Shown in pieces: positions 12,052 through 63,983 of a DNA stretch of 64,000 bases. The stretch covers positions 13,631-77,630 of the forward strand of contig CAZTCT010000002.1 in the NCBI GenBank assembly GCA_964612415.1, read 5' to 3'. The number at the start of each line of letters is the position of its first letter. The stretch's first letter is position 1. Under the pieces are notes generated by a model that saw nothing but the letters and a program-made list of their open reading frames with translations, was not told the DNA's origin and did no database searches. Source of the DNA: an uncultured Candidatus Saccharibacteria bacterium. Its GTDB lineage: Bacteria; Patescibacteriota; Minisyncoccia; Phycocordibacterales; CAYRGE01. A program made the position numbers and the translations under genes.

Positions 12052-12057
12052 ATATTC

Positions 12058-34683: not shown

Positions 34684-35577
34684 TTATTTTTTTGAAACGT
34701 CGTGCCCGCCAAATTCGTTGCGGAGCGCAGACACTACCTTTCCTGTGTATGTCTCGTTACCTTTTGACTGCACACGAAAATCTAGTGCGGCCTCAATCGC
34801 CGGAGTCGCAAGCTCCTGCTCTTTTGCCTCCTCAACGGTCCACATCCCCTCCCCCGAGTGTGCAACTTCTCCAGAAATATCCGAAAGTGCACTCCCATGT
34901 TTTTTGTATGCGGACACAAGCCACTCAATAAGCCGCGACTCAATCACACTTCCGTGATTATACAAATTCGCGACCGCCTCAAGATCAAGGTCAAACTGTG
35001 AATTTTGCATCAGCGCAAATCCTTCCCCAATGGATTGCATCATGCCATATTCAATGCCATTGTGAACCATTTTCACAAAATGCCCGGAGCCAGAGGCACC
35101 ACAATACAGAAGTGCGTCCTCTGCGGCGATGTCTGTAAAAAGTTTTTTGTGCGCATCAAAAGTCTCTTTCTCTCCTCCTACCATGACACATGCGCCAGTT
35201 TTTGCGCCACCCGGGCCACCACTCACCCCCGCATCAAGATACTTAATTCCTCTACCCTCCAGCATTTTTGACCTAATGACCGTCTTTTTGTAAGGAGAGT
35301 TGCCTCCATCAATGATCGTGTCGCCTGATTCAAGCTGCGGCAAGAGCTCAGCGAGTACGGCATCAACAACCCCGTGCGGAACCATGAGCCATACCGTTCG
35401 CGGAGCTGAGAGTTTTTTGAAATCTGCAACACTTTCGGCGACCTCTGCGATGTCTGCCGCCTTTCCTCTAGCTCCCTCGTTCGCATCGTAAGCCAATACA
35501 TCCCACCCCACATTCACAAGGTGAGATATCATATTGAGCCCCATTTTTCCCAATCCAATGTATCCAATTTTACTCAT
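34684..35577 (-). CDS. gnd: 6-phosphogluconate dehydrogenase, short (about 300 aa) form
   Basis: N-terminal IGYIGLGKMGLNM Rossmann motif and 6PGDH core. Confidence 0.85.
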   Translation of the reverse strand: MSKIGYIGLGKMGLNMISHLVNVGWDVLAYDANEGARGKAADIAEVAESVADFKKLSAPRTVWLMVPHGVVDAVLAELLPQLESGDTIIDGGNSPYKKTVIRSKMLEGRGIKYLDAGVSGGPGGAKTGACVMVGGEKETFDAHKKLFTDIAAEDALLYCGASGSGHFVKMVHNGIEYGMMQSIGEGFALMQNSQFDLDLEAVANLYNHGSVIESRLIEWLVSAYKKHGSALSDISGEVAHSGEGMWTVEEAKEQELATPAIEAALDFRVQSKGNETYTGKVVSALRNEFGGHDVSKK

Positions 35578-35581
35578 CGCT

Positions 35582-36994: not shown

Positions 36995-37009
36995 ATGTTC
37001 TCGTGTAAT

Positions 37010-39013
37010 CTAATTTTTGTCCGCCTCGTGCTGGTAGAGCGGATCACATTCAAGGCACAAACCGAGCTCTTCAAGCCGGTCGAGATATTTTATCACAGTG
37101 ATGACATACTCTGAATGGCTCCATGCCAGGGGAGCTGCCGAAATCTGAGCTCCTGTCTCTGGGTCAAGTTGCTCGGAGAGCACCCCGCTTTTGCGGGCAT
37201 GATCGACTGTCCAGCGCAACCAGCCCTTGGCAACTGCGAAATCATTAGAATTTTTTGCCTTTGCGATGTAGTATTGCGCAAGCCATAGTGTGGTAATAAA
37301 CCACGGATTGCCCGTCACCTCCTTTCGGGTCTTGTAGAACTTGTCCCCTGTATATCGGGCGATGCCTCCAATGAGGGTTGGAGCTGCGAGCTTTTTTTCT
37401 ACAAGCATGATCATCTCATATAAGCGCGGATCATCCGGAGGAAGTACTCCAAACGCGAAAAGTCCGTACACACTGCTCATATCAAGAGTATCGTCAACAG
37501 TCTTTTTGCCTTGTTCAAAGTTTACAAGTTTGTAAAACATTTTTTGCTGCGGATCATAGAGGTGTGTCAAAATAGCTTCCTTCACCTCCTCTGCGGCACT
37601 TTTGTAATACTCCTGGCTTCGCTTTTTCCCAAGTAATGCTGCAAATTGCGACGCGGCATTCAGAGCGCCGTAGACCGTACAGGCAGTAAATGTGGAAATG
37701 CCGTACTTCTCTTCCCAGAGATCATAACTTGGATGTGGAAGTCGAGAAGTTTCATCTCTGAAAAGTACCATAAAGTCTGCTGCCTTTTTGATAAGCGAGT
37801 TGTAAATAGTTTCAATGAACTCCACATCGTGAGAAAGTGTGTAGTGCTTCCAGAGACTCAAGAGAACAAGGGCTGTTTCATCTTCTTGTATTGGGAGCTG
37901 AAATTCCCCTCCACGTATCCAGGGCTGCCATGAGCTTCCAAGCGATCCATCTGGACGATATTTGTGCATAAAATATCCGCCGTCAGAGATAATTTCATCA
38001 CACATACGGAAGAATCGCTGGGCGGAATTAAAGTCACCTGCCATATCGAGCGCCATAGAGGCATACGCTGCATCTCTCGGCCACATGTAGCTATATGTGT
38101 CTTTTCCGCCCTGGAGCATGTCTGAGTCGCCAGATGCGATGATAGAGCCGCGCATGTCCGTATGCGCTCGAATAACAAAAAGTGATTTCTTAAAAAGCTT
38201 GGTCACCGACTCATCTAGGTCGTGGAAATTAAACTTCTCCTTTTTTATCCATGCATTCCAAAAATCATGCGTTGTTCTGATCATATGCTCTGGAGTCTTA
38301 CTCATTGTGTAGTCAGAAATTTGTCGGGCTTCAGAGACAGATTCCGCTGAGACAAGCCAGTAATAAAGCACTTTCTCCTCCCGAGGATCATACACACGAT
38401 AAAATCCGACCACCGAGTCAGTGGGCCCATGCTCTATCGCATTGCGGGACAAAACCCCATCCTCAGCGTCTTTGTACGATCCTTCTTTGCCTTCAATATT
38501 GAAAACCCCAGTGGTGTAGTCATCAAAAGGCCTGTCATTACACCTGCCTCCGATAGCAAAAACTCGTTTACCGCTATAGTGAACGATTACATGATTGCGC
38601 GGGTCAAAATATGCCGTGTCACCACTGTGTGCACCTGAAATCTCAAACTCATGTGCAAAAAAAACTTTTATTGTTCGTTTTTGATCGGAAAGGTTGCGGG
38701 TAATACACCTGCGCAAAAAAACATTTTTTTCATTATAAATTGTGTCCGATATCTCAAGCTCTACTTGCAGTTGCTCATTACGGGCAATGGTCTTGCCAGC
38801 AAGCGCGTCATCGGCACTCTCCACACTCACCTTCCAAGATGGGTCGGAAAGCCATTTGAGTGTGCCGTCTACCCACACACCGATCCTATGTCGAGAGTGC
38901 CCACTGATATGATTTTCTAACCCAATGTACGGGAAATACAAATCCCGAACGAACGCGTGTTCGTCAAGGCAGACCATCATATTGCCGTTCCCTAGGGCAA
39001 GATGACGCGGCAT
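37010..39013 (-). CDS. GH15 family glucoamylase/glucodextranase-like glycoside hydrolase
   Basis: Archaeal-type GH15 N-domain plus (alpha/alpha)6 catalytic domain (recalled COG3387-like pattern). Confidence 0.75.
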   Translation of the reverse strand: MPRHLALGNGNMMVCLDEHAFVRDLYFPYIGLENHISGHSRHRIGVWVDGTLKWLSDPSWKVSVESADDALAGKTIARNEQLQVELEISDTIYNEKNVFLRRCITRNLSDQKRTIKVFFAHEFEISGAHSGDTAYFDPRNHVIVHYSGKRVFAIGGRCNDRPFDDYTTGVFNIEGKEGSYKDAEDGVLSRNAIEHGPTDSVVGFYRVYDPREEKVLYYWLVSAESVSEARQISDYTMSKTPEHMIRTTHDFWNAWIKKEKFNFHDLDESVTKLFKKSLFVIRAHTDMRGSIIASGDSDMLQGGKDTYSYMWPRDAAYASMALDMAGDFNSAQRFFRMCDEIISDGGYFMHKYRPDGSLGSSWQPWIRGGEFQLPIQEDETALVLLSLWKHYTLSHDVEFIETIYNSLIKKAADFMVLFRDETSRLPHPSYDLWEEKYGISTFTACTVYGALNAASQFAALLGKKRSQEYYKSAAEEVKEAILTHLYDPQQKMFYKLVNFEQGKKTVDDTLDMSSVYGLFAFGVLPPDDPRLYEMIMLVEKKLAAPTLIGGIARYTGDKFYKTRKEVTGNPWFITTLWLAQYYIAKAKNSNDFAVAKGWLRWTVDHARKSGVLSEQLDPETGAQISAAPLAWSHSEYVITVIKYLDRLEELGLCLECDPLYQHEADKN

Positions 39014-39019
39014 GAGATT

Positions 39020-39358
39020 TTATCGATATGAAGCAAGCCGTTTAGCAACCGCTTTTTGAGCAGCATTTTGACTTTTTGCTGCACGAAGCGATTTGGCACA
39101 TGCTGCATCTTGGAGTATGTCATTCACCCACGAGGCAAAGTCGTTGCGCCCCTTTTCAACATGATACCCGTACTGCTCCGCCGATATCTCCTTGAGCGCA
39201 GTTGAAAGTTCTTTGAGATCTTTGAGTACTGGGCCATTATTCACCCAAAAACACACTTCTGCAGAAGCAACGACTAGCTCCTTGCCTCTTTTCTTTGCAG
39301 GAGTTTTAGCTTTTGTTTTCGTTGTCTTCTTTGTTGTTTTTATAGTTTTCTTTTTCAT
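39020..39358 (-). CDS. Small protein with Lys-rich histone-like N-tail plus a conserved-looking C-domain (CFWVNNGPVLKDL...), hypothetical
   Basis: MKKKTIKTTKKTTKTKAKTPAKKRGK tail; embedded between GH15 and GH57 with 6-14 nt spacers. Confidence 0.5.
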   Translation of the reverse strand: MKKKTIKTTKKTTKTKAKTPAKKRGKELVVASAEVCFWVNNGPVLKDLKELSTALKEISAEQYGYHVEKGRNDFASWVNDILQDAACAKSLRAAKSQNAAQKAVAKRLASYR

Positions 39359-39371
39359 AATATTTTTTTAA

Positions 39372-40607
39372 TTATACCAAAAGTTTCTCTCTTTCTCCTC
39401 TCGCACCTTTACTTTCTCGCTCCACGCGTATCTTAAGATCGTTAATCGCGTTCATAAAAGCGATATACGCCTCGTATGGAGACTCATACGGATTGAAGTA
39501 TTTATGTACGTCTCCATCTGCAAACCACTTAGTGCACATGTAGTAGAAGTGGTCTGATGTTTGAAGTCTCCTCCAATCACGAATGATATCGAGATTCTTG
39601 GTTGCAAGTACCGCGTCTTCTAGCGCATAGATGCTTTCGAGTGCATTGTGCTGTAGTGGGTTAGACCTCCACGCAGAGAGATCTCGCTCAACATCAGCCC
39701 AAGACACATAGTGCGGAACGTCTAGCTCACCTACAGATGGATAGCGCAACGCCGCTTCAGTTGGCGTCACAAAGTCATTGTCGGGGTGTTTGAGTACTTC
39801 CCCAGGCAAAGCGCGCAAGAAATCAAAGATGCCTGTATCTGCCCATTGGTGCTCGCCAAACGTTTCGTAATCCATGAAGAGATTCACTACATTGCCATTT
39901 CCATTCACCGCAGATACCCATTGTGCAAACTGTGGTGCGGTAAGTGGGTACCCTGCCCAATCTCGAGAGGAAAAGCGGAAGGCAATGTCGTCTGAAAGGC
40001 GATAGTGTTTGAGTAAGAGCTTAATGTTTTTTGCACCCGGCGCGCTATAGAGGAAAGAAGGGCTTTTCCACCCAAGAATATGATCTGCTCCTTCCGCAAT
40101 GATGCCAAGATATCCCATCTCAGCGGCTGTTTTTGCAACTTCATTGCTGAAAATAAGCTCAGTATTTCTAAAGACACGTGGAGTGTAGCCAAAAAGTTTT
40201 TTGACTTTCTGCTTATGAAAAAGTACTTGCTTCTTGAATTCCTCTTTGGAGTAAAGGAAAGCGAGTGAATGAAAATATGTCTCACTCAGAATTTCAACTC
40301 TTCCTGTGTCCACAAGCCGCTTAAATGAGTCAAGTGTCTCTGGAGAAAATTCTTCAAGTTGATCCAAAAAGACCCCTGACAGGGAGAAGCTTACTCGAAA
40401 GTCTGGATATTGATTGAGCAAATCAAGAAGAACTGCGTTTGCTGGCAGGTAGCACTTCCCCGCTACCTTATTCAAAACTTTTCTATTGTTTGTGTCACGT
40501 TCCGCCTCATCATTGAAATATTGATGATCCTTCCCAATATCAAAAATTCGATATCGCTTAATGCGATATGGTTGGTGTACCTGAAAATAAAAGCAGACTG
40601 ACGCCAT
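39372..40607 (-). CDS. GH57 family alpha-glucan-active enzyme (amylase/branching-enzyme type)
   Basis: N-terminal CFYFQVHQPYR matches the GH57 (HQP) signature. Confidence 0.78.
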   Translation of the reverse strand: MASVCFYFQVHQPYRIKRYRIFDIGKDHQYFNDEAERDTNNRKVLNKVAGKCYLPANAVLLDLLNQYPDFRVSFSLSGVFLDQLEEFSPETLDSFKRLVDTGRVEILSETYFHSLAFLYSKEEFKKQVLFHKQKVKKLFGYTPRVFRNTELIFSNEVAKTAAEMGYLGIIAEGADHILGWKSPSFLYSAPGAKNIKLLLKHYRLSDDIAFRFSSRDWAGYPLTAPQFAQWVSAVNGNGNVVNLFMDYETFGEHQWADTGIFDFLRALPGEVLKHPDNDFVTPTEAALRYPSVGELDVPHYVSWADVERDLSAWRSNPLQHNALESIYALEDAVLATKNLDIIRDWRRLQTSDHFYYMCTKWFADGDVHKYFNPYESPYEAYIAFMNAINDLKIRVERESKGARGEREKLLV

Positions 40608-40609
40608 AA

Positions 40610-41824
40610 TTATTTTTTAAATAACGAATGATAAATATCAATGCACCTCTGTGCCGCACGCCTCCAATTGAGCCCTTGCACCTCTCCTCTACTGTAGTCT
40701 CTTAGAGTTGAGTGGAGTGTTGGGTGTTTCAACACACTCAAAATTTTATTTGCAGTCTCATCAATATCCCAGAAATCAACCTTGAGCGCATGAGTGAGTA
40801 CTTCCGATACGCCTGACTGCTTAGAGATAATGACAGGAACCCCGCTTGCGACCGCTTCAAGCGGAGTAATGCCAAAAGGCTCCGAAATAGAAGGCATTAC
40901 AAATACATCCGCGACTCGATAAAGCGATTTGAGATCATCTCCTCGCAAAAACCCGACAAAGAGGAGTTTCTCTCCTATCCCAAGATACGCCGCCTCATTC
41001 ATGATCTTGTGCTGCATATCTCCTGACCCAGAAACGACGAACAATACGTTTGGATCATGCTCCAGCACCTTCTTGGCTGCACGTACAAAATATTCAGGAC
41101 CCTTTTGTATTGTGATACGCCCCACGAAAAGAACGATTTTGCGCCCGCCAGCCTTGAGGGCAGCAAGACTATCGGCGTAAGATGACGGCGCCCACTCGTC
41201 GCCATCAACGCCATTATACACGACCTGAACCTTCTCTCTTGGCACTCCGTAGTGCACAACGAGTTTCTCCTTCGTTTGTTCACTTACTGCGATGATGAGA
41301 TCTGCCTCTTCCATTGATGAGCGCTCAATGTTGTACACATCCTGATTGACTCCATGCCCGCCAGTGCGATCAAACTCGGTGGCATGCACATGCAACACAA
41401 GCGGTTTACCACTTACACGCTTGGCTTGAACTCCTGCGAGAAATGAAAGCCAGTCATGTGCGTGGATTACATCAAAATCTTCCTCTTCTGCAATTTCACG
41501 GGCCAGCACACCATACCTTCTCACCTCATCTATCAGCGAAAGCGCGAACATGCCTTTCCCTTTGCGCAACATCTCGGCGTATTTCTCAGAGGTAAGGTAG
41601 GGGTACAGATACGCGGGCACATTTCTAAATTTCAAACTCACGCCTTTATCAGCAAAGCGCAGTTTTGCATATGGTGAATCTACGGGAACTGTTTTGGGGA
41701 GTACGAAAGTGACTGAAACGTCCTCCTCGCACAATGCCTTTGTGAGGCCAAAACATGCAGTCCCCAGCCCTCCACTATTGTGGGGTGGGAATTCCCATCC
41801 AAACATAAGAACTCGTAAAGGCAT
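40610..41824 (-). CDS. glgA: Glycogen synthase-like retaining glycosyltransferase (GT4/GT5)
   Basis: MPLRVLMFGWEFPPHNSGGLGTA N-terminus, GT-B C-terminal E-x7-E region; ORF-track start at 41869 adds 15 unconserved aa. Confidence 0.75.
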   Translation of the reverse strand: MPLRVLMFGWEFPPHNSGGLGTACFGLTKALCEEDVSVTFVLPKTVPVDSPYAKLRFADKGVSLKFRNVPAYLYPYLTSEKYAEMLRKGKGMFALSLIDEVRRYGVLAREIAEEEDFDVIHAHDWLSFLAGVQAKRVSGKPLVLHVHATEFDRTGGHGVNQDVYNIERSSMEEADLIIAVSEQTKEKLVVHYGVPREKVQVVYNGVDGDEWAPSSYADSLAALKAGGRKIVLFVGRITIQKGPEYFVRAAKKVLEHDPNVLFVVSGSGDMQHKIMNEAAYLGIGEKLLFVGFLRGDDLKSLYRVADVFVMPSISEPFGITPLEAVASGVPVIISKQSGVSEVLTHALKVDFWDIDETANKILSVLKHPTLHSTLRDYSRGEVQGLNWRRAAQRCIDIYHSLFKK

Positions 41825-42163
41825 TGGCGTTATATGAACTTCTGTGCGGGATAAAACAACGGGCAACAACTCTATGCGGCGCTAAGACTGAAAAAGAAAG
41901 TGGCGGGTACACATTGCCCCATCACATATAGCGCGTGTGGGAATGAGCCCGCCTTGCATAAAGTCATTACTTTTTATTTTCATGGTTGTACAGTGACGCT
42001 CGTTTGCTCGTGAGCGGTGCTATACGCAAATGACGGCAACCCGACTTTTGCCGAACTTTGCGCGCACACTTCATTTTAGCACGCAACTTCTCTCTTCTGC
42101 CATAAAAAATCTGTTAATAATGCGCTCCTGGCGCGAAATTGGGTATGGTATAGTTGTTCCTGT

Positions 42164-43134: not shown

Positions 43135-46100
43135 TTATTGTGGCTTCATTGTCGCACGAAGCGCGCAATAATCGCAATCCTTCTTTCCGCATGTTTTGTC
43201 CCAGAACGCAAGACTGTAAATCTCGCTTCCAATCCGCTTCATTTCCCGCACAAGCTCGTCAACCTCGTCTTGAGATATCACAAAGCGTTCTTTTTTGAAC
43301 CGCCCCTTATCATCAGGCTCAACGAAGTCAATTTCACCAGTCTCCATCTTATATTTCCCTTCGTCATATCTGTCTAGCAGATATTTATAAAAAACAAGCT
43401 GCCGCTTATATTCCCCGTCGCTTGATTTAGTTTTACCTTCAATCGCATTACGTGAGCGTGGTTTTGATGTCTTGTAGTCAACCACATTTATTCCGCCATC
43501 TCCCTCCTCAATCTTATCGATTACCCCGCGCAATGTAATAATCAAAGGCTCGCCACTATTCTCAATGGTTAGATAAGGGCCAGCAATAGAAAATTCAGTT
43601 GCAATAGGCACCACCACTGAATGCTTGTACGCTTTGTAGTACCCCAAGAGCGCGCGCTTCCCTTTCGCGAGTAAATCAGTAAAGTCCGTCGCCGAAAGGG
43701 GCTCTCGCCCAAGAAGCCCAGCTAGGCGTTCTTCAAGAAAGCTCTCTGTCGGTGACTCTCCGGCTCGTAGCGCGTCATAATATTCTTTCAAGATACGGTG
43801 TATCACTGTTCCATACATTTGGAATTTAGAATATGGCCGCGGAATACGTACCAGGCTTACAAAAAAGTACTCCCATGGACAGCGCAGGTAATTATTAACC
43901 GCGGTGATGGAGAGGCCTTGTTCTAAAAAAAGCTCCTGCAAATATTTTTTGTCCGCAATTTCTGGGCCTTGATTTATACGAGGCGCAAAAATTCGCTCCT
44001 TTTCTTTTTGATATTTTGCTTCAAATTCGCCGACATCCTGCGACCTGATCAGCTTTACGTCAATTTCTCCGACAAACTGCGATGGAAGCTGATGCCGCCC
44101 ATCTATACTGGTTGAAGAATAGCTCAATGAAACTCCCTTGCGTGCTCGTGTGAGGAGCACATAGAAGAGCCTTCTTTCGTCCTCAACTTCACCTTCAAAC
44201 GACAGGGCAATGTCACCGCGCGCAACCCGGAAGGATGTTCGTGACCTTCTTCCTCCCCAGTGCTTGTCGTAAACACCGATTGCATATACATAATCAAACT
44301 CAAGTCCTTTTGCCTTGTGAGCCGTCATAAGACGCACGCCCCCGCCCCCTGCGCGATGCGGCATTTTTACAAGAACACCATGCCTCTCTAGAATCGCAAT
44401 GTACTCAAGAAAATCGCGCAACAAATATTCACGGTGGCCTAATACCGCTCTCTCTGCTTCAGTGAAAAACCCCTCGAGTGTTTCCATGCGCCTTGTGCCG
44501 CCTACTTCTGCAAGAATTGAGTGCAGGAAGCCTGACTCACGGACCACCACCTCAAGCGTTTCAAGGAGCCCGCGATTTCGGGCAAGCTTCCCCCACCCAG
44601 CCATGTTCTTCGCAAGCCTCAATATTGTCTCTTGCGCTTCTACGCCTGCTTTCTCTAATACTTTTTTTGACTTCATAGTCCCGTATAATGGGATTCGCTC
44701 CTTTCGCGCATGTGATATGACGCGATGCACATCAATATTGGGGATACCAAGAAAATCAATGTAGAGCGCCGCGGCAAGTACTGTGTCATCTCCCAGGTCC
44801 TCAACGGCGCGCAATAGTGCAATAAGCTTGCGAAGATCTTGGTCGCTTAAAAGGTCTCTGTCGGAGAGAACTATAAATGGTATGTCACTCTTTTCTAGAT
44901 ATCTGAGCACTGTATGCGCATCATTATTATCCCTGTAAAAAATGGCAATCTCTTCGGGTGGGACTCCATCAGAGATTTTCTTTCTTATGTCATCAACGAG
45001 GAAAAAATACTCATATTCAGGGGAAGAAAATTCGGAGAGGAGTATGGGAGCAGGGCCTGCTTCCTTTTTTGCCACCAGAGGGGCATGGAGCGTTTTGTCG
45101 TCAACCCTGTTGTGCAATATAACGCTATGCGCTGCATCAAGAATATCTTGTCGGGAGCGATAGTTCTCCGTCAGTGTAATAATGAGTGCGCTCGGGAATT
45201 TGTCTTTGAAGTATAGGAAGTTCGCCAGAGAGGCGCCTTGGAATCTGAAGATTGCTTGCTTCTCATCTCCCACAATAAAAAGATTGGGGTCCTCGTGGAA
45301 ACTTGCGAGAAGCTCAAGGATACGATTTTGCGCATTGTTCGTATCCTGGTGTTCGTCCGCGAGAATATACTGGTAGTTTTCCTGCAGACCAAGGAGAAAA
45401 TCTGAATTGCGCTCCATAGCACGCACTGCCTCAATGATCATGTCCTCATAGTCATACTTCTTATCTGCTTCAATTTCTTCCTGATACATTTGATACGCTC
45501 GCGCAAGCTCTTTTGTCTTCTCAATATCCTTTAATTCCTGTAAATACGCTCCCTTCATTTTGCCTTTGTGCGCGCCCTTTTCATGATAAAGATCCGGCAA
45601 CTGATTGAACGCATCTTCGGACTGCTCAACGATGCGCGTAAACACATCGGGAGCAATCCCCTCGCGCTTGAGATGTTGTATCGCCCCTAAAATAGAACGG
45701 ACGTAGAAAAACACATCTCCGTAAGGACGAAGAAGGTTGAATCCTCCTTTTTCGAGTACGCGCTCAACAATAGCGATCCTATCTACATCCGTTGCGCTTG
45801 TTCCGCCGATAATTCTAGGGAACTCATCGGGGTACGTAATAATGAGGTCTTGGCAAAATGAATGGAAAGTCATGATATTGACCCGGTAGGCCGGACTTCC
45901 AATAATCTCCACTAGACGTTTGCGCATTGAATGCGCACCCGACTCTGTAAATGTAAGCGCAAGAATATTTTCGGGCATCGTGTCGGTCTTGAGAAGAATG
46001 TTCGCGATACGCAGCGTAAGTGTTTGTGTCTTGCCTGTCCCAGGGCCGGCAATAACCATGACAGGCCCCTCTATCGCATCCACGGCTTGTTGCTGTGCCT

Positions 46101-46161
46101 TGTTAAGCCTCTTATATTCACGCTGAAATGTAGCCGCATCCATTGGCTCATTATAGCCCAT
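43135..46161 (-). CDS. UvrD/PcrA-type SF1 helicase fused to a C-terminal PD-(D/E)xK nuclease with Cys cluster (AddA/AdnA-like)
   Basis: Walker A GPGTGKTQ, UvrD motifs, C-terminal VVDYKTSK plus CGKKDCDYC. Start taken at MGYNEPMD (46161), because the ORF-track Met at 46182 lies inside the upstream terminator hairpin. Confidence 0.8.
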   Translation of the reverse strand: MGYNEPMDAATFQREYKRLNKAQQQAVDAIEGPVMVIAGPGTGKTQTLTLRIANILLKTDTMPENILALTFTESGAHSMRKRLVEIIGSPAYRVNIMTFHSFCQDLIITYPDEFPRIIGGTSATDVDRIAIVERVLEKGGFNLLRPYGDVFFYVRSILGAIQHLKREGIAPDVFTRIVEQSEDAFNQLPDLYHEKGAHKGKMKGAYLQELKDIEKTKELARAYQMYQEEIEADKKYDYEDMIIEAVRAMERNSDFLLGLQENYQYILADEHQDTNNAQNRILELLASFHEDPNLFIVGDEKQAIFRFQGASLANFLYFKDKFPSALIITLTENYRSRQDILDAAHSVILHNRVDDKTLHAPLVAKKEAGPAPILLSEFSSPEYEYFFLVDDIRKKISDGVPPEEIAIFYRDNNDAHTVLRYLEKSDIPFIVLSDRDLLSDQDLRKLIALLRAVEDLGDDTVLAAALYIDFLGIPNIDVHRVISHARKERIPLYGTMKSKKVLEKAGVEAQETILRLAKNMAGWGKLARNRGLLETLEVVVRESGFLHSILAEVGGTRRMETLEGFFTEAERAVLGHREYLLRDFLEYIAILERHGVLVKMPHRAGGGGVRLMTAHKAKGLEFDYVYAIGVYDKHWGGRRSRTSFRVARGDIALSFEGEVEDERRLFYVLLTRARKGVSLSYSSTSIDGRHQLPSQFVGEIDVKLIRSQDVGEFEAKYQKEKERIFAPRINQGPEIADKKYLQELFLEQGLSITAVNNYLRCPWEYFFVSLVRIPRPYSKFQMYGTVIHRILKEYYDALRAGESPTESFLEERLAGLLGREPLSATDFTDLLAKGKRALLGYYKAYKHSVVVPIATEFSIAGPYLTIENSGEPLIITLRGVIDKIEEGDGGINVVDYKTSKPRSRNAIEGKTKSSDGEYKRQLVFYKYLLDRYDEGKYKMETGEIDFVEPDDKGRFKKERFVISQDEVDELVREMKRIGSEIYSLAFWDKTCGKKDCDYCALRATMKPQ

Positions 46162-46195
46162 AAGAAAAAGCCCCCACACCATCTGTTTGGTGTGG
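46162..46195 (-). terminator. Intrinsic terminator downstream of the cytochrome c gene (CCACACC-loop-GGTGTGG + CTTTTTCTT)
   Basis: Read on the minus strand; a second GCCCG...CGGGC hairpin at 46209..46228. Confidence 0.7.
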
Positions 46196-46242
46196 AGGCT
46201 TGGGGTAAGCCCGACTTGTAAGGCGGGCGTTTGTTGTAAGGC

Positions 46243-46614
46243 TTACTGGGAGCCGGCCAGGCTCAAGACGAAGTCCACGAGCGTCGCGATATCACCGTCG
46301 GAGACACGCGGGCTGTAGGGCGGCATGGGCACACCACCAGTGACTTCGGTCCAGTTGCCCTTGCCGCCGGCCTTGACCTTGGCGACGAGTGCGTCCTTGG
46401 CGCCGGCATCACCCTGATACTTCTTGGATACGTCCATCCATGCCGGACCGACGACCTTCTTGTCGATGGCGTGGCAGGCGATACAGCCGCTTGATTTGGC
46501 CAGGTCGGGCATTTCGGCGGCGTTGGCGGGGACATTGGGCAGCAGAATGATACAGGAAACGATGATTGCCAGCGCGATCGGCATCAGTATGCGGTTAAGG
46601 GTTCCCTGAAACAT
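46243..46614 (-). CDS. Class I c-type cytochrome (cytochrome c551/c552-like) with signal peptide; compositionally foreign (GC-rich) gene
   Basis: CIACH haem-binding motif; GCIACHAIDKKVVGPAWMDV...GVPMPP closely resembles Pseudomonas cytochrome c-551 (recalled); GGAGGG Shine-Dalgarno at -8; GC3 strongly elevated. Confidence 0.85.
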   Translation of the reverse strand: MFQGTLNRILMPIALAIIVSCIILLPNVPANAAEMPDLAKSSGCIACHAIDKKVVGPAWMDVSKKYQGDAGAKDALVAKVKAGGKGNWTEVTGGVPMPPYSPRVSDGDIATLVDFVLSLAGSQ

Positions 46615-46651
46615 GCGTATTTCCCTCCTTCAGTCTTGTGGATTTAAGGTA

Positions 46652-46676
46652 CAAAAAAGGCACACACCTGTGTACC
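46652..46676 (-). terminator. Intrinsic terminator of the HAD gene (GGTACACA-gg-TGTGTGCC + TTTTTTGT on minus strand), 35 nt upstream of the cytochrome c ATG
   Basis: Read directly. Confidence 0.65.
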
Positions 46677-46721
46677 TCTTTCAACTATAGCATATATCCT
46701 TTCCCCTGTAAAGTACCCGCT

Positions 46722-47432
46722 CTAGATCTCGTAGACGACATCCTTTCGTTCCACCACAACCTTCCACCCATTGATTTTTGCATATCTATAGAGCGTATTG
46801 TTGGGGTTGAAACATATCGGTATCTCTACTAACTCGAGGACAGGAATATCACCTTCTGTATCACCCACTCCAATAGACCCTTCAAGAGTAAGATTCTCTT
46901 TCTCCATTGCCCTCTTCACGATATTAGATTTGTTTGCAATCAAGTGTTCGTCAACCACCGAGCCTGTGAAGCGATCTCCGGGACCGATCTCATAAATGCG
47001 TCCGTACACTTTATCAAACCCATATTGTTCACAAAATTTATCCAAAATAGACTTTGGGGATTGAGATATTGCGAGGAGAAAATAGCCTTTCTTCTTCAGG
47101 TCATGCACAAGGTCGCGCGTATACCGATACACCCGGTTTTGATGGTGTGCAAGCACATGATCTGCGGTATCTGCGAATTCACTATAATGCACACCTTTGA
47201 TGTGCTTCATGAACGATTTCACGACGGCACCAATATAGTCTTCATAGGTGCCCTCTCGATCAAGCCACGCACGATATTCTTTCTCAAAACTAGCTCGTGC
47301 CCCCTCGGGGAATATCTCTTTCTCGACAAGCGCAGACACAAGCTCAATGAGCAAGCTTGAGCGGAAAATAGTACCGTCTACATCAAATATCGCGACTTGC
47401 CGCTTAGACTTCATTCTATGATAGTACCACAA
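46722..47432 (-). CDS. HAD-superfamily hydrolase (HAD-IB/phosphoserine-phosphatase-like)
   Basis: DVDGT motif I, C-terminal GDTEGD motif IV. Confidence 0.75.
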   Translation of the reverse strand: MWYYHRMKSKRQVAIFDVDGTIFRSSLLIELVSALVEKEIFPEGARASFEKEYRAWLDREGTYEDYIGAVVKSFMKHIKGVHYSEFADTADHVLAHHQNRVYRYTRDLVHDLKKKGYFLLAISQSPKSILDKFCEQYGFDKVYGRIYEIGPGDRFTGSVVDEHLIANKSNIVKRAMEKENLTLEGSIGVGDTEGDIPVLELVEIPICFNPNNTLYRYAKINGWKVVVERKDVVYEI

Positions 47433-50078: not shown

Positions 50079-50363
50079 TTATTGTGTTGCCATCTTTGCT
50101 CCTCCGTGATGCCCGGGCGCGTCGTGATGTTCGTCGTGCTCCTGCTCTGGAGGACGCCTCTTATTTAGCATTGCATTATAGCGAGGCTGTTGGGAGTGTC
50201 TTGAGTGAGATGACATGCCCTTCATCATGATACGCATAGCGAGCACATTGAGCCCCAGCGCGACAAAGAACAAGAATATGACCGCAGCAATGGCCACAAT
50301 GACGTAAAATATAACGTCAGAATTAACTCCTCCATACAATACTGCTTGGTAATCTTGTATCAT
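50079..50363 (-). CDS. Small membrane protein with His-rich C-terminus, hypothetical
   Basis: One TM (VIFYVIVAIAAVIFLFFVALGL) and HDEHHDAPGHHGG tail. Confidence 0.45.
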   Translation of the reverse strand: MIQDYQAVLYGGVNSDVIFYVIVAIAAVIFLFFVALGLNVLAMRIMMKGMSSHSRHSQQPRYNAMLNKRRPPEQEHDEHHDAPGHHGGAKMATQ

Positions 50364-51267: not shown

Positions 51268-51729
51268 CTAGTTGAGCGTCAGAATGACGTAAGTGAGATA
51301 CACACCAAATCCTACCCATATCGCATATGGAATGAACAGAAGCGCTGCAGAACGGATCTTCCCCCAAAGCGCAAAAATAAGAGCGACTGTAGTGAAGAGA
51401 AGCAAGACCGCAACCCAAAGAGAAAGCCCAAAGCTCTGTAGCCAGAAGAATGTCGCTGGCCACAAGACGTTGAGTAAAATATTGAAAACCAGGAGCACAA
51501 TACTTGCCGCAAATGCCTCATCGCGAGACATGACATTCCACATCATAAGCGCCGCAAGCGTTGCTGATGCATACAAAATTATCCACACGAGGGACAAGAC
51601 GCCGCCCGACGGTGCCCAAACTGGTAGTATTAGCGCGTTGTACCACTCAAGCCCATACCCCACAAGCCACCCACCAAACAGCGCGGTCAAGACCGTAATA
51701 ATCGGAATAATGTAATAATTTGGCTTCAT
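51268..51729 (-). CDS. tspO: TspO/MBR tryptophan-rich sensory protein
   Basis: Five-TM, Trp-rich, LFIPYAIWVGFGVYL C-terminus. Confidence 0.85.
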   Translation of the reverse strand: MKPNYYIIPIITVLTALFGGWLVGYGLEWYNALILPVWAPSGGVLSLVWIILYASATLAALMMWNVMSRDEAFAASIVLLVFNILLNVLWPATFFWLQSFGLSLWVAVLLLFTTVALIFALWGKIRSAALLFIPYAIWVGFGVYLTYVILTLN

Positions 51730-52569: not shown

Positions 52570-53181
52570 CTACTGGAGAAGCCCTCGTAGTACAGGCTCT
52601 ACTCTATCTGCAATCCGCGCATACCCTTTGTCATTTGGATGCACTTCGTCAGACATATATTCCGGATGAGCGAAAAGTCCGTCCAGTACATCAGACACAT
52701 ACGCTGTATGATATTTCTTGCTTGTAGCTTCGTAATATTCCTTAAACGGATCAGAGAAGACACTCCCCCGCACCCCAAGCAAAAGCACGATTGCTCCACG
52801 GTCTTCTATGTTCTGAACAATGTCTGAAAGAGTTTTGAAAGTTTCTTCTATCGGCACTCTTTTGAGGTGGTCATTGCCGCCTAGAAGTAGGATGACCACC
52901 TTTGGACGGTATTTATCAAGTGCATCAATGCGCGCAAGACCATCTGCAGTAGTATTGCCCGATACACCAAGATTTACGATAGGTCTGCCTATGCGTTTGG
53001 AGAGTAGGCTCACAAAGTCATTTCCTGGGCTTGCTCCAACCCCTTGGATCAAGCTGTCCCCAAAAGCGATGATATCCGTCCCCGAGGATGGGTAATTGGC
53101 AATCGTGCTCTCTCCTGAAAAGAAAAAGGAGCCTCCTACAATGAGCGCAAGAGCGACCCCTCCCGCGATTGTGTATTTCAT
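52570..53181 (-). CDS. SGNH/GDSL hydrolase (arylesterase-like), secreted
   Basis: FGDSL block I, GGNDHL block III, DxxH at C-terminus. Confidence 0.82.
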   Translation of the reverse strand: MKYTIAGGVALALIVGGSFFFSGESTIANYPSSGTDIIAFGDSLIQGVGASPGNDFVSLLSKRIGRPIVNLGVSGNTTADGLARIDALDKYRPKVVILLLGGNDHLKRVPIEETFKTLSDIVQNIEDRGAIVLLLGVRGSVFSDPFKEYYEATSKKYHTAYVSDVLDGLFAHPEYMSDEVHPNDKGYARIADRVEPVLRGLLQ

Positions 53182-53747
53182 TCTGCGTCTACTGGCTCGT
53201 TATCTTCAGTTGCCTCAGTAGTTACATCTGGTCCGTCTACTTTGAATGTAAAGCGATAATTTTGTGGCTCAATAGATTGTGAAGCACGTGGAGCTGGCGT
53301 TACTTCTTTGAGTGTAATTGTGTGCCCTTCAAATGGCAGAGTCTCACCAAGCCCTATCGTCTCTTCGGTGCCGGTAGCTCCAGTAGTAATGCGCAGTGTG
53401 AGCTTGACCGTCCCGGCCTGGATGCACACAACATCCACGGGGCAGCGGCTGTCTTCCAGAACGGTAAGAGGTGTGAGGCGAAGATCAAGCGCATTGACTG
53501 CTTGTTTGAGACTTGCGGTTACAGTCGCGGTATTCGGCATATCAACAACAGGGCATGCGGCAAACTCGCATGACGGAGGGATTCGTCCTACCGCAGAACC
53601 ATCTGGACAAATCTTGGCGTCTGCAGTACAAGCCACTGGCTCATTCCCGTCATCTGGAGTTGGCGCTTTTGCCTCTTTTGAGTAAAGGAAAAGGCCTGCA
53701 ATGATGAGTACCAAAACAATAACCCCTGTCGCTATTTTTGAGTTCAT
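53178..53747 (-). CDS. Secreted/membrane-anchored Cys-rich hypothetical protein
   Basis: N-terminal TM, 8 Cys in the first 110 aa; 4-nt overlap with the GDSL gene. Confidence 0.5.
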   Translation of the reverse strand: MNSKIATGVIVLVLIIAGLFLYSKEAKAPTPDDGNEPVACTADAKICPDGSAVGRIPPSCEFAACPVVDMPNTATVTASLKQAVNALDLRLTPLTVLEDSRCPVDVVCIQAGTVKLTLRITTGATGTEETIGLGETLPFEGHTITLKEVTPAPRASQSIEPQNYRFTFKVDGPDVTTEATEDNEPVDAE

Positions 53748-62189: not shown

Positions 62190-63254
62190 CTACCCGAAAG
62201 TGAACGCGTAGAAGCGAGCACCTGTTCCTCGCACTTTGAGCTCAAGAGTATGCTCTCCCGCAACATCGTTCTTGATAAGTTTATAGAGACGGCTCTCCTT
62301 GATTGTAACAATGCCTCCATCACTAACATCAGCCCCTTTGCTTGAGCTCACTAGCTTTCCGTCTTGCCATACTTCCATTTCTATATCCGAATCAGCTTCA
62401 GCGACAATATATACCTCTTTTGCATAATATTTGTATACAATACTTGAATTAGTCTTGGATTCTGCATATTCTGACGCAACATTCCAGTCTCCGCCAAGAT
62501 AGAGCGCGTTGCGGAAAAGAGTTTCGGGGACCGCAAATGTCTGATTCCCCACCTGCCCTTTTGCGCCGTTCATGAGATACTCATTTCTAAAGGCTCCTAG
62601 ATATGTTTCTGGGCTGCGTGTTTCGATATTTGTTTTAGGGACACTCGACGCCGCAAGTCCGCTTGTGTCAGGCATCGCATCTCCCAGTGCTTGGGCCCTC
62701 TCAGCAAGAAGCTCTTGAATTTTTTCTTCTGTCTCTTCGTATGCCCCTTCCCCGATATGGTCATACACAACATTGCCGTGGATATCAATGAGATACTTGC
62801 GCGGCCAATATCTGTTCCCGTAAGCGCGCCATGTGGCGTAATCATTATCCAGCACAATAGGATATTCTATGCCGAAATTTTTCATCGCTTCGCGTACATT
62901 ATTGATGTCTTTCTCAAATGCGAACTCTGGAGTATGAATGCCCACGATCTCGAGTCCTTGGTCTTTATATTTCTCATACCACGCATTCATATAAGGAAAA
63001 GTGCGCTGGCAATTAATACAGCTATAGGTGAGAAAATCTACTAAAATCACCTTTTTCCCAACCAACTCTCCGAGGGTGATGCTGTCTGTATTCACAAACC
63101 CAGATGGATCCACGATTTCCTTGTACGGGTTCTCTCCAAGAGCAACAACATTACTGTCTGTCTTTGTTTGAGAGGGTGCTGCGCTCAAGATAACAATCCC
63201 CACAGCAAGTAGTACGAGAAGAATAACGCCGATGATGTATTCAGGTCTTTTCAT
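62190..63254 (-). CDS. Membrane-anchored thioredoxin-like thiol-disulfide oxidoreductase (TlpA/ResA/DipZ-C-terminal type) with extra C-terminal beta-rich domain
   Basis: TM, then LVDFLTYSCINCQRTFP CxxC redoxin domain, then about 160-aa extra domain. Confidence 0.8.
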   Translation of the reverse strand: MKRPEYIIGVILLVLLAVGIVILSAAPSQTKTDSNVVALGENPYKEIVDPSGFVNTDSITLGELVGKKVILVDFLTYSCINCQRTFPYMNAWYEKYKDQGLEIVGIHTPEFAFEKDINNVREAMKNFGIEYPIVLDNDYATWRAYGNRYWPRKYLIDIHGNVVYDHIGEGAYEETEEKIQELLAERAQALGDAMPDTSGLAASSVPKTNIETRSPETYLGAFRNEYLMNGAKGQVGNQTFAVPETLFRNALYLGGDWNVASEYAESKTNSSIVYKYYAKEVYIVAEADSDIEMEVWQDGKLVSSSKGADVSDGGIVTIKESRLYKLIKNDVAGEHTLELKVRGTGARFYAFTFG

Positions 63255-63257
63255 ATG

Positions 63258-63983
63258 CTATTGCACTTTATCCAATAATTTCTGTTCAATCTTAGTCACA
63301 TCAAAAAACCCACTATCTAAAATTGATGCCTCAAGTTTTTTCTCATACCCCACCGCAATGAAAAGCCCGAGCAGGATGAAGAAAATACCAATCCCTCTTT
63401 TGAAGTACCCATGGGAATCTGAGAAAGCGGCAAGACGATCTGCAAATCGTTGCCCTAAAAGTGCGATCATGAGAAGTACTAGTGACAACCCGACAACATA
63501 TGAGAGTAGATATACCGTGCCGAGCAAAAACGATGCTGGCAATACAGACGCCAAAATCACAAAGTATGTAGGCGAACACGTAGAGAAGACAGGCCCAAGG
63601 GCGGCACCAACCATAATGTCTCCAAAGACAGTTTTCTTCTGGTAGCCTGTCCCGACCAACTTATTGGACCCAGCAGAGAGACGAGCGATGCCAGGAAGTT
63701 TCTCCCACAGACTAGGAAATACAAGGACAAGGCCAAAGAGAACCAACACACCTCCTGAGAAATACGTCCACACTTCCGGGGGCACCATGATGAATACCGT
63801 TGACGCCTTAAGCAGATACGTAAAGAGAATGATAGAGAGAGCAAGAGACCCAACAACAATGTATGGGGTAGATTTGCTCCTCCCTGCAGCAGAAGAGCCG
63901 ATCACCACTGGCAGAAGTGGCAAGATGCATGGTGCCAAAACCGTGAGAACTCCAGCAATAAACGAAACAATGAGAAAAGTCAT
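63258..63983 (-). CDS. ccdA: Cytochrome c-type biogenesis/disulfide-reductant membrane protein CcdA (DsbD core)
   Basis: 6-TM with the two conserved Cys (LAPCILPLLP; FSTCSPTYF). Confidence 0.85.
   Translation of the reverse strand: MTFLIVSFIAGVLTVLAPCILPLLPVVIGSSAAGRSKSTPYIVVGSLALSIILFTYLLKASTVFIMVPPEVWTYFSGGVLVLFGLVLVFPSLWEKLPGIARLSAGSNKLVGTGYQKKTVFGDIMVGAALGPVFSTCSPTYFVILASVLPASFLLGTVYLLSYVVGLSLVLLMIALLGQRFADRLAAFSDSHGYFKRGIGIFFILLGLFIAVGYEKKLEASILDSGFFDVTKIEQKLLDKVQ

What the first reader, a model, noticed from the sequence alone, without database searches (positions are those of the whole stretch)
46162..46676. Single GC-rich cytochrome c551-like gene dropped into an AT-richer, otherwise respiration-free gene neighbourhood
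The 372-nt ORF 46243..46614 is dominated by GCC/GGC/CTG/GAC codons. Its GC is clearly higher than that of its neighbours (by eye about 60-65% versus about 45-50%), and the change of composition coincides with the ORF ends.

It encodes a signal peptide plus a CIACH haem motif. The mature part (GCIACHAIDKKVVGPAWMDV...GVPMPP...DGDIATLVDFVLS) aligns convincingly, from memory, with proteobacterial cytochrome c-551/NirM.

The flanks are host-like. A GGAGGG Shine-Dalgarno sits at -8. Its own hairpin/T-run terminator lies downstream (46162..46195). The terminator of the upstream HAD gene sits only about 35 nt before its ATG, which leaves little room for a promoter.

No oxidase, bc-type complex, Ccs/Ccm haem lyase or nitrite reductase is visible in 64 kb. 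The only possible partners are CcdA plus a thioredoxin at 62190..63983.

This points to a recent single-gene horizontal acquisition, possibly an electron donor for an acquired NirK-type enzyme elsewhere, as reported for some reduced-genome bacteria. Alternatively it could be an assembly chimera.
Basis: partly seen in the sequence, partly recalled or inferred. Interest (0 to 1): 0.85.

Follow-up and report, generated by a model that had tools for sequence, protein, structure and literature searches.

The report
Borrowed cytochrome c in a Parcubacterium
A tiny-genome groundwater-type bacterium (Parcubacteria/CPR) carries a small haem protein gene of the cytochrome c551 family that came from Gammaproteobacteria; it has been kept, re-fitted for export and conserved in several related lineages, yet still 'looks foreign' in its DNA composition.

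Summary
ORF 46243..46614 (-) has 60.8% GC and GC3 0.77, against 47.1% and 0.47 for the other 61 ORFs (about 5 sd). It encodes a Sec-signal plus monohaem class I cytochrome c of the c551/c552 family (PDB matches at E about 1e-18).

It is not an assembly chimera. The same junctions occur in two independent assemblies, and diverged orthologues lie at the same place (HAD hydrolase, cytochrome c, UvrD/PD-(D/E)XK helicase) in at least three further lineages.

The host is a Patescibacteria/Parcubacteria bacterium. The closest relatives of the mature protein (84-88% identity) are uncultured Gammaproteobacteria, so single-gene horizontal transfer is supported.

'Recent' is not supported. The gene co-diverged with its flanks until silent sites were nearly saturated, and it is under purifying selection (dN/dS 0.1-0.26). 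It has a conserved promoter-like element and a signal peptide remodelled to be longer and more hydrophobic.

Despite that age it keeps donor-like GC3 in all three lineages with DNA. I cannot explain this.

The window plus about 8 kb beyond its end holds no haem lyase, oxidase or nitrite reductase, only a thioredoxin/CcdA/redoxin cluster. The partner and the haem-attachment route remain unknown.

It is a new member of a known kind, of moderate interest.

The parts
46243..46614 (-). Cytochrome c gene (123 aa precursor): class I monohaem, c551/c552 (c8) family
   Evidence: ORF. Pfam PF00034. PDB phmmer hits 2d0s, 1dvv and 351c at E about 1e-18. AlphaFold model with Foldseek target-normalised TM 0.73-0.76 to c551/c552. 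GC 0.608 and GC3 0.774.
46519..46614 (-). Export signal, residues 1-32 (MFQGTLNRILMPIALAIIVSCIILLPNVPANA, then AE...). The AXA site is kept. It is longer and more hydrophobic than in any proteobacterial homologue. This allele has a lipobox-like IVSC21.
   Evidence: Signal length is 31-33 residues by the script's measure, against 24.6 +/- 3.1 in 106 homologues. The maximum 15-residue Kyte-Doolittle score is 2.96-3.05 against 1.99 +/- 0.29 (largest other value 2.81). It is the most divergent segment between the window and L003.
46471..46485 (-). Haem-binding motif C44-I-A-C47-H48
   Evidence: Translation. These columns are invariant in alignment A2. They align to C12/C15/H16 of P. aeruginosa c551.
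46324..46326 (-). Met97, predicted sixth haem ligand (in VPMPP)
   Evidence: Invariant in A2. It aligns with the PMPP methionine of c551 and c552.
46623..46630 (-). Shine-Dalgarno AAGGAGGG, 8 nt before the ATG. The string AAGGAGGGAG(T)AT is shared with the closest gammaproteobacterial loci.
   Evidence: Sequence. Comparison with L007, L090 and L094.
46684..46712 (-). Sigma-70-like promoter candidate: TTTACA, 17 nt, TG-n-TATAGT
   Evidence: 10 of 12 consensus matches plus an extended -10. One site in this region is not more than the shuffles give. However, both hexamers and the spacing are kept in L003 and L005 while the spacer sequence has diverged.
46653..46682 (-). Hairpin plus U-run ending the upstream HAD gene. 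It would lie at the very 5' end of a cytochrome c transcript started at the candidate promoter.
   Evidence: 13-pair stem in the RNA fold. Conserved in L003 and L005.
46159..46201 (-). Intrinsic terminator of the cytochrome c gene (14-bp stem, 8 G-C pairs, then a T-run). It abuts the helicase ATG at 46161.
   Evidence: fold z = -5.4; inverted repeat I1. Conserved in L003.
46722..47432 (-). Upstream neighbour: HAD-family hydrolase (host-like composition)
   Evidence: Pfam PF12710. GC3 0.477. Syntenic in L001, L003, L005 and the JGI contig.
43135..46161 (-). Downstream neighbour: UvrD helicase fused to a PD-(D/E)XK nuclease (host-like composition)
   Evidence: Pfam hits. All homologues that carry a source name are Parcubacteria/Patescibacteria.
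62190..63983 (-). CcdA-like thiol-reductant transporter (63258..63983) and a membrane-anchored redoxin/Thioredoxin_10 protein (62190..63254). A possible but non-specific helper for keeping CXXCH reduced.
   Evidence: Pfam hits. Both conserved CcdA cysteines and a CINC motif are present. An anchored WCPIC thioredoxin lies just beyond the window end, and no CcsBA/ResBC lies in the next 8 kb.

Best explanation
The gene encodes a functional, exported monohaem cytochrome c of the c551/c552 (c8) family.

Origin. An ancestor of this Parcubacteria (CPR/Patescibacteria) lineage acquired it as a single gene from a Gammaproteobacterium with about 60% GC. The donor-type ribosome-binding site probably came with it. 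It landed in the intergenic space between a HAD hydrolase and a UvrD/PD-(D/E)XK helicase. It has been inherited there since, so the event is old rather than recent.

Domestication. It sits behind a host-type promoter-like element and has its own terminator. Its export signal has been rebuilt into the longer, more hydrophobic form typical of single-membrane bacteria. That form could also act as a membrane anchor, and in this allele possibly as a lipoprotein signal.

Inferred mechanism. The precursor is exported by Sec. The CXXCH cysteines are kept reduced outside the membrane, possibly through the thioredoxin/CcdA/redoxin system. Haem is attached by a route not visible here. The holoprotein then shuttles single electrons at the cell surface to or from a partner encoded elsewhere. 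Candidates are NirK, which is widespread in Parcubacteria, a cytochrome c peroxidase, or an oxidase.

Shown: identity, fold, foreign origin, synteny, age, purifying selection and signal remodelling. Inferred: promoter use, haem attachment, partner and direction of electron flow.
For: Identity.
- Pfam PF00034.
- PDB sequence matches to c551/c552 at E = 5e-19.
- Foldseek target-normalised TM 0.73-0.76 with probability 1.0.
- CXXCH and the PMPP methionine are invariant in alignment A2.

Foreign origin.
- GC and GC3 lie about 5 sd from the window genes, and codon usage has z = -5.7.
- The best non-syntenic relatives are Gammaproteobacteria MAGs at 84-88% identity over the mature part.
- The named relatives of the window's GlyRS and helicase are all Paceibacterota, Kaiserbacteria, Minisyncoccia or Parcubacteria.
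- The closest gammaproteobacterial loci have genomic GC 0.56-0.62 and cytochrome GC3 0.72-0.81, the same as here.
- In those genomes the gene also stands alone among unrelated genes.

Not an artefact.
- L001 (10.4 kb, 99.97% identical) and L002 (100% identical) come from other sequencing runs and span both junctions.

Age and vertical descent.
- The order HAD, cytochrome c, helicase recurs in L003/L004, L005 and a JGI contig.
- Window against L005: flanks are 85-88% identical in protein with NG86 dS undefined or above 1.9. The mature cytochrome has dN 0.13 and dS 1.2.
- Observed over expected synonymous difference is 0.83-0.89 for the cytochrome and 0.75-0.91 for the flanks.

Selection.
- dN/dS is 0.11 to 0.26 over the mature part.

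Domestication.
- The promoter hexamers are conserved.
- The signal peptide is longer and more hydrophobic than in all 106 homologues.
- The four syntenic copies form one clade in a neighbour-joining tree and share CI/VACH and AEMPDLAK.

Plausibility of partners.
- nirK is reported as widely dispersed in Parcubacteria (PMC5581439).
- c-type cytochromes occur in Ca. Parcunitrobacter (PMC5220378), whose helicase is among the closest relatives of the window's (55% identity).
Against: - No haem lyase (CcsBA/ResBC or Ccm), haem synthesis gene, oxidase, bc complex or nitrite reductase appears in the 64-kb window or in the 8 kb beyond its end. Holo-protein formation and a partner are therefore unproven.
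- Haem attachment does not normally happen spontaneously in cells (PMC3601427).
- Bootstrap support for a single clade of the syntenic copies is weak (43 of 200), because the domain is short and conserved.
- Donor-like GC3 has persisted (0.76-0.82 in the mature part, 0.73-0.77 in the signal) despite near-saturated silent divergence. That is not what simple vertical descent with neutral amelioration predicts.
- The promoter match is not statistically enriched in the region (1 found, 1.2 expected).
- A transcript started there would begin at a terminator-like hairpin.
- No syntenic 'empty site' was found in more distant relatives. The time of insertion therefore has no upper bound.
Confidence: 0.7

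Rival explanations
1. Recent single-gene acquisition. The gene arrived so recently that its composition has had no time to change.
For: GC3 (0.77) and codon usage are indistinguishable from the closest gammaproteobacterial loci. The ribosome-binding string resembles the donors'.
Against: Orthologues sit at the same site in lineages whose flanks are saturated at silent sites. The cytochrome's own silent sites are 83-89% randomised between these lineages. Nucleotide identity to the best gammaproteobacterial allele is only about 80%. The signal peptide has been rebuilt.
Confidence: 0.07
2. One old insertion whose coding core is repeatedly overwritten, by homologous recombination, with alleles taken up from co-resident (possibly host) Gammaproteobacteria. 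This would keep the composition donor-like.
For: GC3 is not ameliorated. The window's core is as close in DNA to gammaproteobacterial L090 (80.3%) as to the CPR copy L005 (79.4%). The window and L003 show a mosaic pattern: flanks are 98% identical in protein, while the signal and C-terminal segments are strongly divergent. Clade support for the syntenic copies is weak.
Against: The CPR-specific signal peptide has no gammaproteobacterial counterpart, yet its third positions are also GC-rich (0.73-0.77). No gammaproteobacterial allele closer than about 80% in DNA was found among about 160 loci. The syntenic copies share derived residues (CI/VACH, AEMPDLAK).
Confidence: 0.13
3. Assembly or binning chimera: a proteobacterial fragment mis-joined into a CPR contig.
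For: The compositional step coincides with the gene.
Against: Identical junctions occur in two other assemblies from different runs. Diverged orthologues with the same neighbours occur in three further data sets. The upstream and downstream signals are conserved and host-like.
Confidence: 0.01
4. The protein is kept for something other than respiratory electron transfer. Examples are haem capture or storage for a haem-auxotrophic cell, peroxide or NO detoxification at the surface, or electron exchange with the host cell's periplasmic chain.
For: No respiratory partner is visible in about 72 kb. A TspO tetrapyrrole-binding protein and peroxiredoxins lie nearby. The protein closely resembles those of likely neighbouring Gammaproteobacteria.
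Against: Every residue needed for a standard His/Met low-spin electron carrier is conserved, and the whole surface-forming mature part is under purifying selection. There is no positive evidence for any of these roles. Most of the genome is unseen.
Confidence: 0.15

Closest known systems
Pseudomonas aeruginosa cytochrome c551 (NirM), Hydrogenobacter thermophilus / Hydrogenophilus thermoluteolus c552 and Nitrosomonas europaea c552 (class I, c8 family)
   Same: 45-55% identity over the whole mature domain. Same CXXCH, the same PMPP methionine ligand and the same four-helix fold. Like them it has a Sec signal.
   Different: It has a 4-residue insertion (NWTEVTGG where c551 has VW--GP) that it shares with its gammaproteobacterial subfamily. 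It is not in a nir operon. It resides in a CPR genome. Its signal peptide is much more hydrophobic.
Stand-alone c551-like cytochromes of uncultured groundwater and sediment Gammaproteobacteria (for example loci L007, L090, L094, L006)
   Same: 84-88% identity in the mature part, the same GC3 and the same ribosome-binding string. Each is a solitary gene with its own terminator.
   Different: They have the Gram-negative type of signal (MK..R, Ala-rich, 23-25 aa). In those genomes the gene's composition matches the genome's, whereas here it does not.
Membrane-anchored or lipoprotein c-type cytochromes of single-membrane bacteria (Bacillus c550/c551; from my own knowledge)
   Same: A small class I cytochrome that has to be held at the outer face of a single membrane. 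The long hydrophobic N-terminus, and in this allele an IVSC lipobox-like site, would do that.
   Different: There is no sequence relationship beyond the class I fold. The anchor or lipidation is inferred, not shown. The other CPR alleles have no cysteine in the signal.
c-type cytochromes of 'Candidatus Parcunitrobacter nitroensis', the CPR bacterium with a respiratory chain (PMC5220378)
   Same: c-type cytochromes in a Parcubacteria-group genome. Its UvrD/nuclease helicase is among the nearest relatives of the window's (55% identity).
   Different: Those are multihaem, sit in a respiratory gene cluster and are reported as highly divergent, not recently transferred. This one is monohaem, isolated and clearly gammaproteobacterial.

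Membership tests
Class I cytochrome c, c551/c552 (c8) subfamily | Single CXXCH haem-binding motif near the N-terminus of the mature protein | tested here: met
   C44-I-A-C47-H48, 12 residues into the predicted mature chain. The columns are invariant in alignment A2.
Class I cytochrome c, c551/c552 (c8) subfamily | Methionine sixth ligand in a Pro-rich loop (PMPP) about 45-50 residues after the histidine | tested here: met
   Met97 in VPMPP aligns with the ligand methionine of 351c/2exv and is invariant.
Class I cytochrome c, c551/c552 (c8) subfamily | Significant sequence and fold similarity to solved members | tested here: met
   phmmer E = 5.5e-19 to 2d0s and 1e-18 to 1dvv/2exv. Foldseek probability 1.0 and target-normalised TM 0.73-0.76. 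The model's mean pLDDT is only 69.5, but 74-89 over most of the core.
Class I cytochrome c, c551/c552 (c8) subfamily | Covalently bound haem and reversible one-electron redox chemistry | not testable with these tools
   Needs protein expression, haem staining and spectroscopy.
NirM (the c551 encoded in nirS operons as donor to cd1 nitrite reductase) | Gene located in a nirS-nirM-nirC type cluster | tested here: not met
   The neighbours are a HAD hydrolase and a helicase. No nir gene was found among the scanned ORFs of the 64 kb.
Horizontally acquired gene | Composition and codon usage atypical for the resident genome | tested here: met
   GC +5 sd, GC3 +5.4 sd, codon log-likelihood z = -5.7.
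Horizontally acquired gene | Closest relatives belong to a different lineage from that of the flanking genes | tested here: met
   The cytochrome's closest relatives are Gammaproteobacteria at 84-88% identity. The flanks' relatives are Parcubacteria/Patescibacteria.
Horizontally acquired gene | Empty site in related genomes, or hallmarks of a mobile element | tested here: inconclusive
   More distant relatives have lost synteny, so no empty site could be shown. There are no flanking repeats, no viral copies and no close plasmid copies.
System II cytochrome c maturation (CcdA + ResA/CcsX + CcsB/CcsA) | CcdA reductant transporter with two conserved membrane cysteines | tested here: met
   63258..63983 has LAPC and FSTC. 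The Pfam DsbD_2 match (24.5 bits) falls just below the gathering score of 24.9.
System II cytochrome c maturation (CcdA + ResA/CcsX + CcsB/CcsA) | Haem-handling synthase CcsB/CcsA (ResB/ResC) | tested here: not met
   Absent from the scanned window ORFs and from the 8 kb upstream of ccdA. The rest of the genome could not be examined.

The most novel reading that the evidence does not exclude
The CPR cell is an episymbiont of a sulfur- or iron-oxidising Gammaproteobacterium and keeps a near-copy of its host's own periplasmic cytochrome at its surface. With it the cell plugs into, or drains, the host's electron-transport chain. It has no respiratory chain or haem lyase of its own, so haem would be taken from the host and attached without a dedicated synthase, as can happen for thermophilic members of this family. 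The donor-like codon usage would be maintained by continued recombination with host DNA, or by selection on silent sites.
Probability: 0.07. Interest if true: 0.85.

Novelty: new member of a known kind. Interest (0 to 1): 0.42.

Why it matters
Bacteria of the Candidate Phyla Radiation are generally described as fermenters without electron-transport chains, and c-type cytochromes are rare exceptions in them.

A c551-type cytochrome of clear gammaproteobacterial origin has been kept under purifying selection at one locus in several Parcubacteria lineages and re-fitted for export. This implies that these cells have some surface redox chemistry, and a way to obtain and attach haem.

It gives a concrete handle for finding that partner: search the complete genomes for NirK, peroxidase, oxidase and CcsBA. 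It may also help to guess the physical host, because the closest gene relatives may mark it.

Donor-like codon usage has persisted after silent sites turned over. That is a small but clean counter-example to simple amelioration, and it could be used to study selection or gene conversion on transferred genes.

Tried and rejected
- **Chimera.** Rejected after finding identical junctions in the independent assemblies L001 and L002.
- **Reaching the rest of the genome.** Look-ups are limited to window proteins. The left end gave only a 4.4-kb contig. The right end gave 8 kb with no haem lyase.
- **Searching for an empty HAD-helicase site.** I used relatives found through GlyRS and through the helicase. 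Synteny is lost at that distance, so this led nowhere.
- **Metagenome scan for more syntenic copies.** All 80 loci lacked HAD or helicase neighbours.
- **Vectors.** There are no viral homologues. Plasmid homologues are below 60% identity. No flanking repeats were found.
- **Known RNA element in the leader.** None was found.
- **Operon context in donors as a clue to function.** The neighbours are unrelated housekeeping genes.
- **Highly expressed host genes preferring GC-ending codons.** There is no sign of this in the window: L9 has GC3 0.45, AhpC 0.43 and BipA 0.51.
- **First tree script.** It timed out and was rewritten.
Full report
**What is there.**
- The minus-strand ORF 46243..46614 encodes 123 residues.
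- Its GC is 0.608 and its GC3 is 0.774. The 62 ORFs of at least 90 aa in the window average 0.471 (sd 0.027) and 0.466 (sd 0.057), and no other ORF exceeds 0.512 GC.
- Under the window's own synonymous codon frequencies it is the worst-fitting gene (z = -5.7). It prefers GCC, CTG, GTC, AAG, ATC and TCC, which are minor codons in the host.
- A two-state fit places the GC-rich segment at 46169..46544 (62.5% against 46.5%).

**What the protein is.**
- It matches Pfam Cytochrom_C.
- By sequence alone it matches the solved c551/c552 cytochromes of Hydrogenophilus, Pseudomonas, Hydrogenobacter and Nitrosomonas at E = 5e-19 to 1e-12.
- The haem motif C44-I-A-C47-H48 and the ligand methionine (Met97 in VPMPP) are invariant among 33 homologues.
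- An AlphaFold model has mean pLDDT 69.5, higher in the core. It superposes on those structures with target-normalised TM 0.73-0.76.
- Membership of the class I c551/c552 (c8) family is therefore met on every feature that sequence can test.
- It is not NirM in the operon sense, because no nir gene is nearby.

**Whose genome this is.**
- The Pfam-scanned ORFs of the window are housekeeping genes. They include ScpAB, FtsW, MurG, GltX, CysS, DnaB, RecR, UvrABC, Tgt, DHFR, G6PD/6PGD, glycogen enzymes, GlyRS, BipA, ZnuABC and a P-type ATPase.
- Where a source name exists, the relatives of its GlyRS and of the helicase next to the cytochrome are Paceibacterota, Kaiserbacteria, Minisyncoccia or the Parcubacteria/Patescibacteria group.
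- One of the nearest helicases (55% identity) is from LBUF02, the genome of 'Ca. Parcunitrobacter nitroensis'. That is a lead, not a placement.
- No oxidase, bc complex, nitrite reductase or haem lyase is in the window.
- The only other CXXCH is the UvrA zinc finger.

**Not an artefact.**
- The exact protein is encoded on two Logan contigs from other sequencing runs. These are 99.97% and 100% identical to the window across both junctions.

**Where the gene came from.**
- Of 1449 homologues, the best non-syntenic ones are 80-89% identical over the mature part. Where named, they are Gammaproteobacteria.
- In one representative genome per species, the 80 best loci are all Proteobacteria, led by uncultured Gammaproteobacteria (84%).
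- The metagenome scan adds alleles at 88% (L090).
- In these genomes the gene's GC3 follows the genome's GC, from 0.25 at 39% GC to 0.81 at 62% GC.
- The closest alleles (L007, L090, L094, L006) come from genomes of 56-62% GC and have GC3 0.72-0.81, the value seen here.
- There too the gene is solitary, with its own terminator and unrelated neighbours. A one-gene transfer is therefore natural.
- The string around the Shine-Dalgarno site (AAGGAGGGAG-TAT) is shared between those loci and the CPR copies. This suggests that the left end of the transferred piece lay just upstream of it.
- No viral copy, close plasmid copy or flanking repeat points to a vector.

**When.**
- Proteins 79%, 73% and 68% identical over their full length are encoded at the same place in other assemblies, between the same HAD hydrolase and the same helicase.
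- In L003 the flanks are 98% identical in protein (dS 0.33-0.47). In L005 they are 85-88% identical, and NG86 dS is undefined or above 1.9.
- The mature cytochrome has dN/dS of 0.26 and 0.11 in these two comparisons.
- Between the window and L005, 44% of its amino-acid-identical codons differ. That is 83% of what full randomisation under its own codon usage would give. The flanking genes reach 75-91%.
- The gene has thus diverged in step with its neighbours, so the insertion predates the split of these lineages.
- The four syntenic copies form one clade in a neighbour-joining tree of 120 homologues, but with weak support (43 of 200 bootstraps).
- They also share CI/VACH and AEMPDLAK, where the listed proteobacterial homologues have CT/LACH.

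**Signs of domestication.**
- The HAD terminator hairpin (46682..46653) and the Shine-Dalgarno site are conserved in the orthologues.
- So are the two hexamers and the 17-nt spacing of a promoter-like element, TTTACA/TGnTATAGT (46712..46684), although the spacer sequence between them has changed.
- That match is not enriched over shuffles, so it rests on conservation alone.
- A transcript started there would begin at the hairpin. Whether the hairpin attenuates or stabilises that transcript is unknown.
- The export signal is the clearest adaptation. In the CPR copies it is about 30-32 residues and rich in Ile, Leu and Phe. Its maximum 15-residue hydropathy is 2.96-3.05.
- In 106 proteobacterial homologues the signal is 24.6 +/- 3.1 residues with hydropathy 1.99 +/- 0.29, and none exceeds 2.81.
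- Longer, more hydrophobic signals are typical of single-membrane bacteria (my own knowledge). Such a segment could also stay in the membrane as an anchor.
- The window allele alone has a lipobox-like I-V-S-C21. Lipoprotein versions of this family do exist in Gallionella and Nitrotoga relatives.

**Two things I cannot explain.**
- First, GC3 is 0.76-0.82 in the mature part of all three CPR copies with DNA, and 0.73-0.77 even in the CPR-specific signal peptide. Yet the silent sites have almost fully turned over.
- Neutral decay towards the host's 0.47 should have erased most of the excess. This is my inference from the standard amelioration argument.
- Three explanations remain open: silent sites are under selection here; the core is repeatedly overwritten by gammaproteobacterial alleles; or a biased conversion process acts.
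- The window core is 80.3% identical in DNA to gammaproteobacterial L090 and 79.4% to CPR L005. The GC-rich third positions of the CPR-only signal argue against pure overwriting.
- Second, between the window and L003 the locus is a mosaic. Sixty-base blocks range from 100% to 78% identity, and the signal-peptide block falls to 38-72%. This means recombination among alleles.

**How it probably works.**
- The protein has everything a His/Met one-electron carrier needs, and selection keeps it.
- I infer Sec export, then cleavage at ANA|AE or retention by the hydrophobic N-terminus.
- I infer that the CXXCH thiols are kept reduced outside the membrane. A membrane-anchored WCPIC thioredoxin, CcdA with both conserved cysteines, and an anchored CINC redoxin form a cluster at and beyond the window's right end.
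- That cluster is compatible with System II maturation but not specific to it. The synthase CcsBA is not in the window or in the next 8 kb.
- Uncatalysed haem attachment is known only for thermophilic relatives expressed in E. coli, and in vitro (PMC3601427). A dedicated system elsewhere in the genome is therefore the more likely route.
- The partner is unknown. nirK is reported as widespread in Parcubacteria, with a cupredoxin proposed as donor (PMC5581439).
- c551 donates to Cu-nitrite reductase in Achromobacter (my own knowledge).

**Verdict.**
- This is a real, old, single-gene transfer of a c551-family cytochrome from Gammaproteobacteria into a Parcubacteria lineage. The gene has been domesticated and conserved.
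- It is a new member of a known kind.
- Its interest lies in implying surface redox chemistry and haem handling in a CPR lineage, and in the unexplained lack of amelioration.
- The key open test is the content of the rest of the genome.

Noticed in passing
window 51268-51729 (-): A TspO/MBR-family membrane protein lies 4.6 kb from the cytochrome gene, next to a peroxiredoxin. Members of this family are annotated as tetrapyrrole-binding. It might bear on haem or porphyrin handling in a cell that probably cannot make haem.
   Followed up: no
window 62190-63983 (-), continuing beyond the window end (L086:7817-8350): Three-gene cluster: a membrane-anchored thioredoxin (WCPIC), CcdA, and a membrane-anchored redoxin with a Thioredoxin_10 C-terminal domain (CINC). 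It resembles actinobacterial DipZ split into parts. Upstream lie an HTH gene, a dienelactone hydrolase, an ECF sigma factor and others, with no CcsBA.
   Followed up: partly
window 46559-46612 compared with L003:779-870: Between two strains whose flanking proteins are 98% identical, the signal-peptide-coding block is only 38-72% identical. The last 12 or so codons also differ sharply. Alleles of this gene are evidently being shuffled by recombination within the population.
   Followed up: partly
window 46552-46563 (-), residues 18-21: The window allele has I-V-S-C, which fits a lipoprotein lipobox. The alleles in L003, L005 and P0005 have no cysteine in the signal. Gallionella and Nitrotoga relatives (L038, L041) are clear lipoproteins (LSAC).
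   Followed up: partly
window 46159-46182 (-): The T-run of the cytochrome c terminator runs straight into the helicase start codon at 46161. The mechanically listed start at 46182 lies inside the hairpin. No promoter or good ribosome-binding site for the 3-kb helicase gene was seen.
   Followed up: no
window 46209-46242 (-): The 3' UTR of the cytochrome gene holds a 9-nt direct repeat (GCCTTACAA twice on the coding strand, listed as TTGTAAGGC at 46216-46224 and 46234-46242). It also holds a small GCCCG/CGGGC hairpin with no counterpart downstream of the gammaproteobacterial genes. Origin unknown.
   Followed up: partly
window 43135-46161 (-); L174: The helicase's closest relatives (58-55% identity, against 48-51% for most CPR hits) include that of 'Ca. 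Parcunitrobacter nitroensis' (LBUF02). That is the one CPR genome described with a respiratory chain and multihaem cytochromes. BipA is 66% identical. The relationship was not established.
   Followed up: partly
window 34684-41869 (-): A run of carbohydrate genes: 6-phosphogluconate dehydrogenase, a lactonase-like gene, G6PD, GH15 glucoamylase-like, GH57 and a GT4/GT5 glycogen-synthase-like gene. An oxidative pentose-phosphate branch next to storage-glucan turnover is notable for a CPR genome.
   Followed up: no
window 9016-9426 (+), 11685-12203 (-), 50079-50363 (-), 53178-53747 (-): Four ORFs of 94-189 aa with host-like composition have no Pfam match at E <= 1e-5.
   Followed up: no
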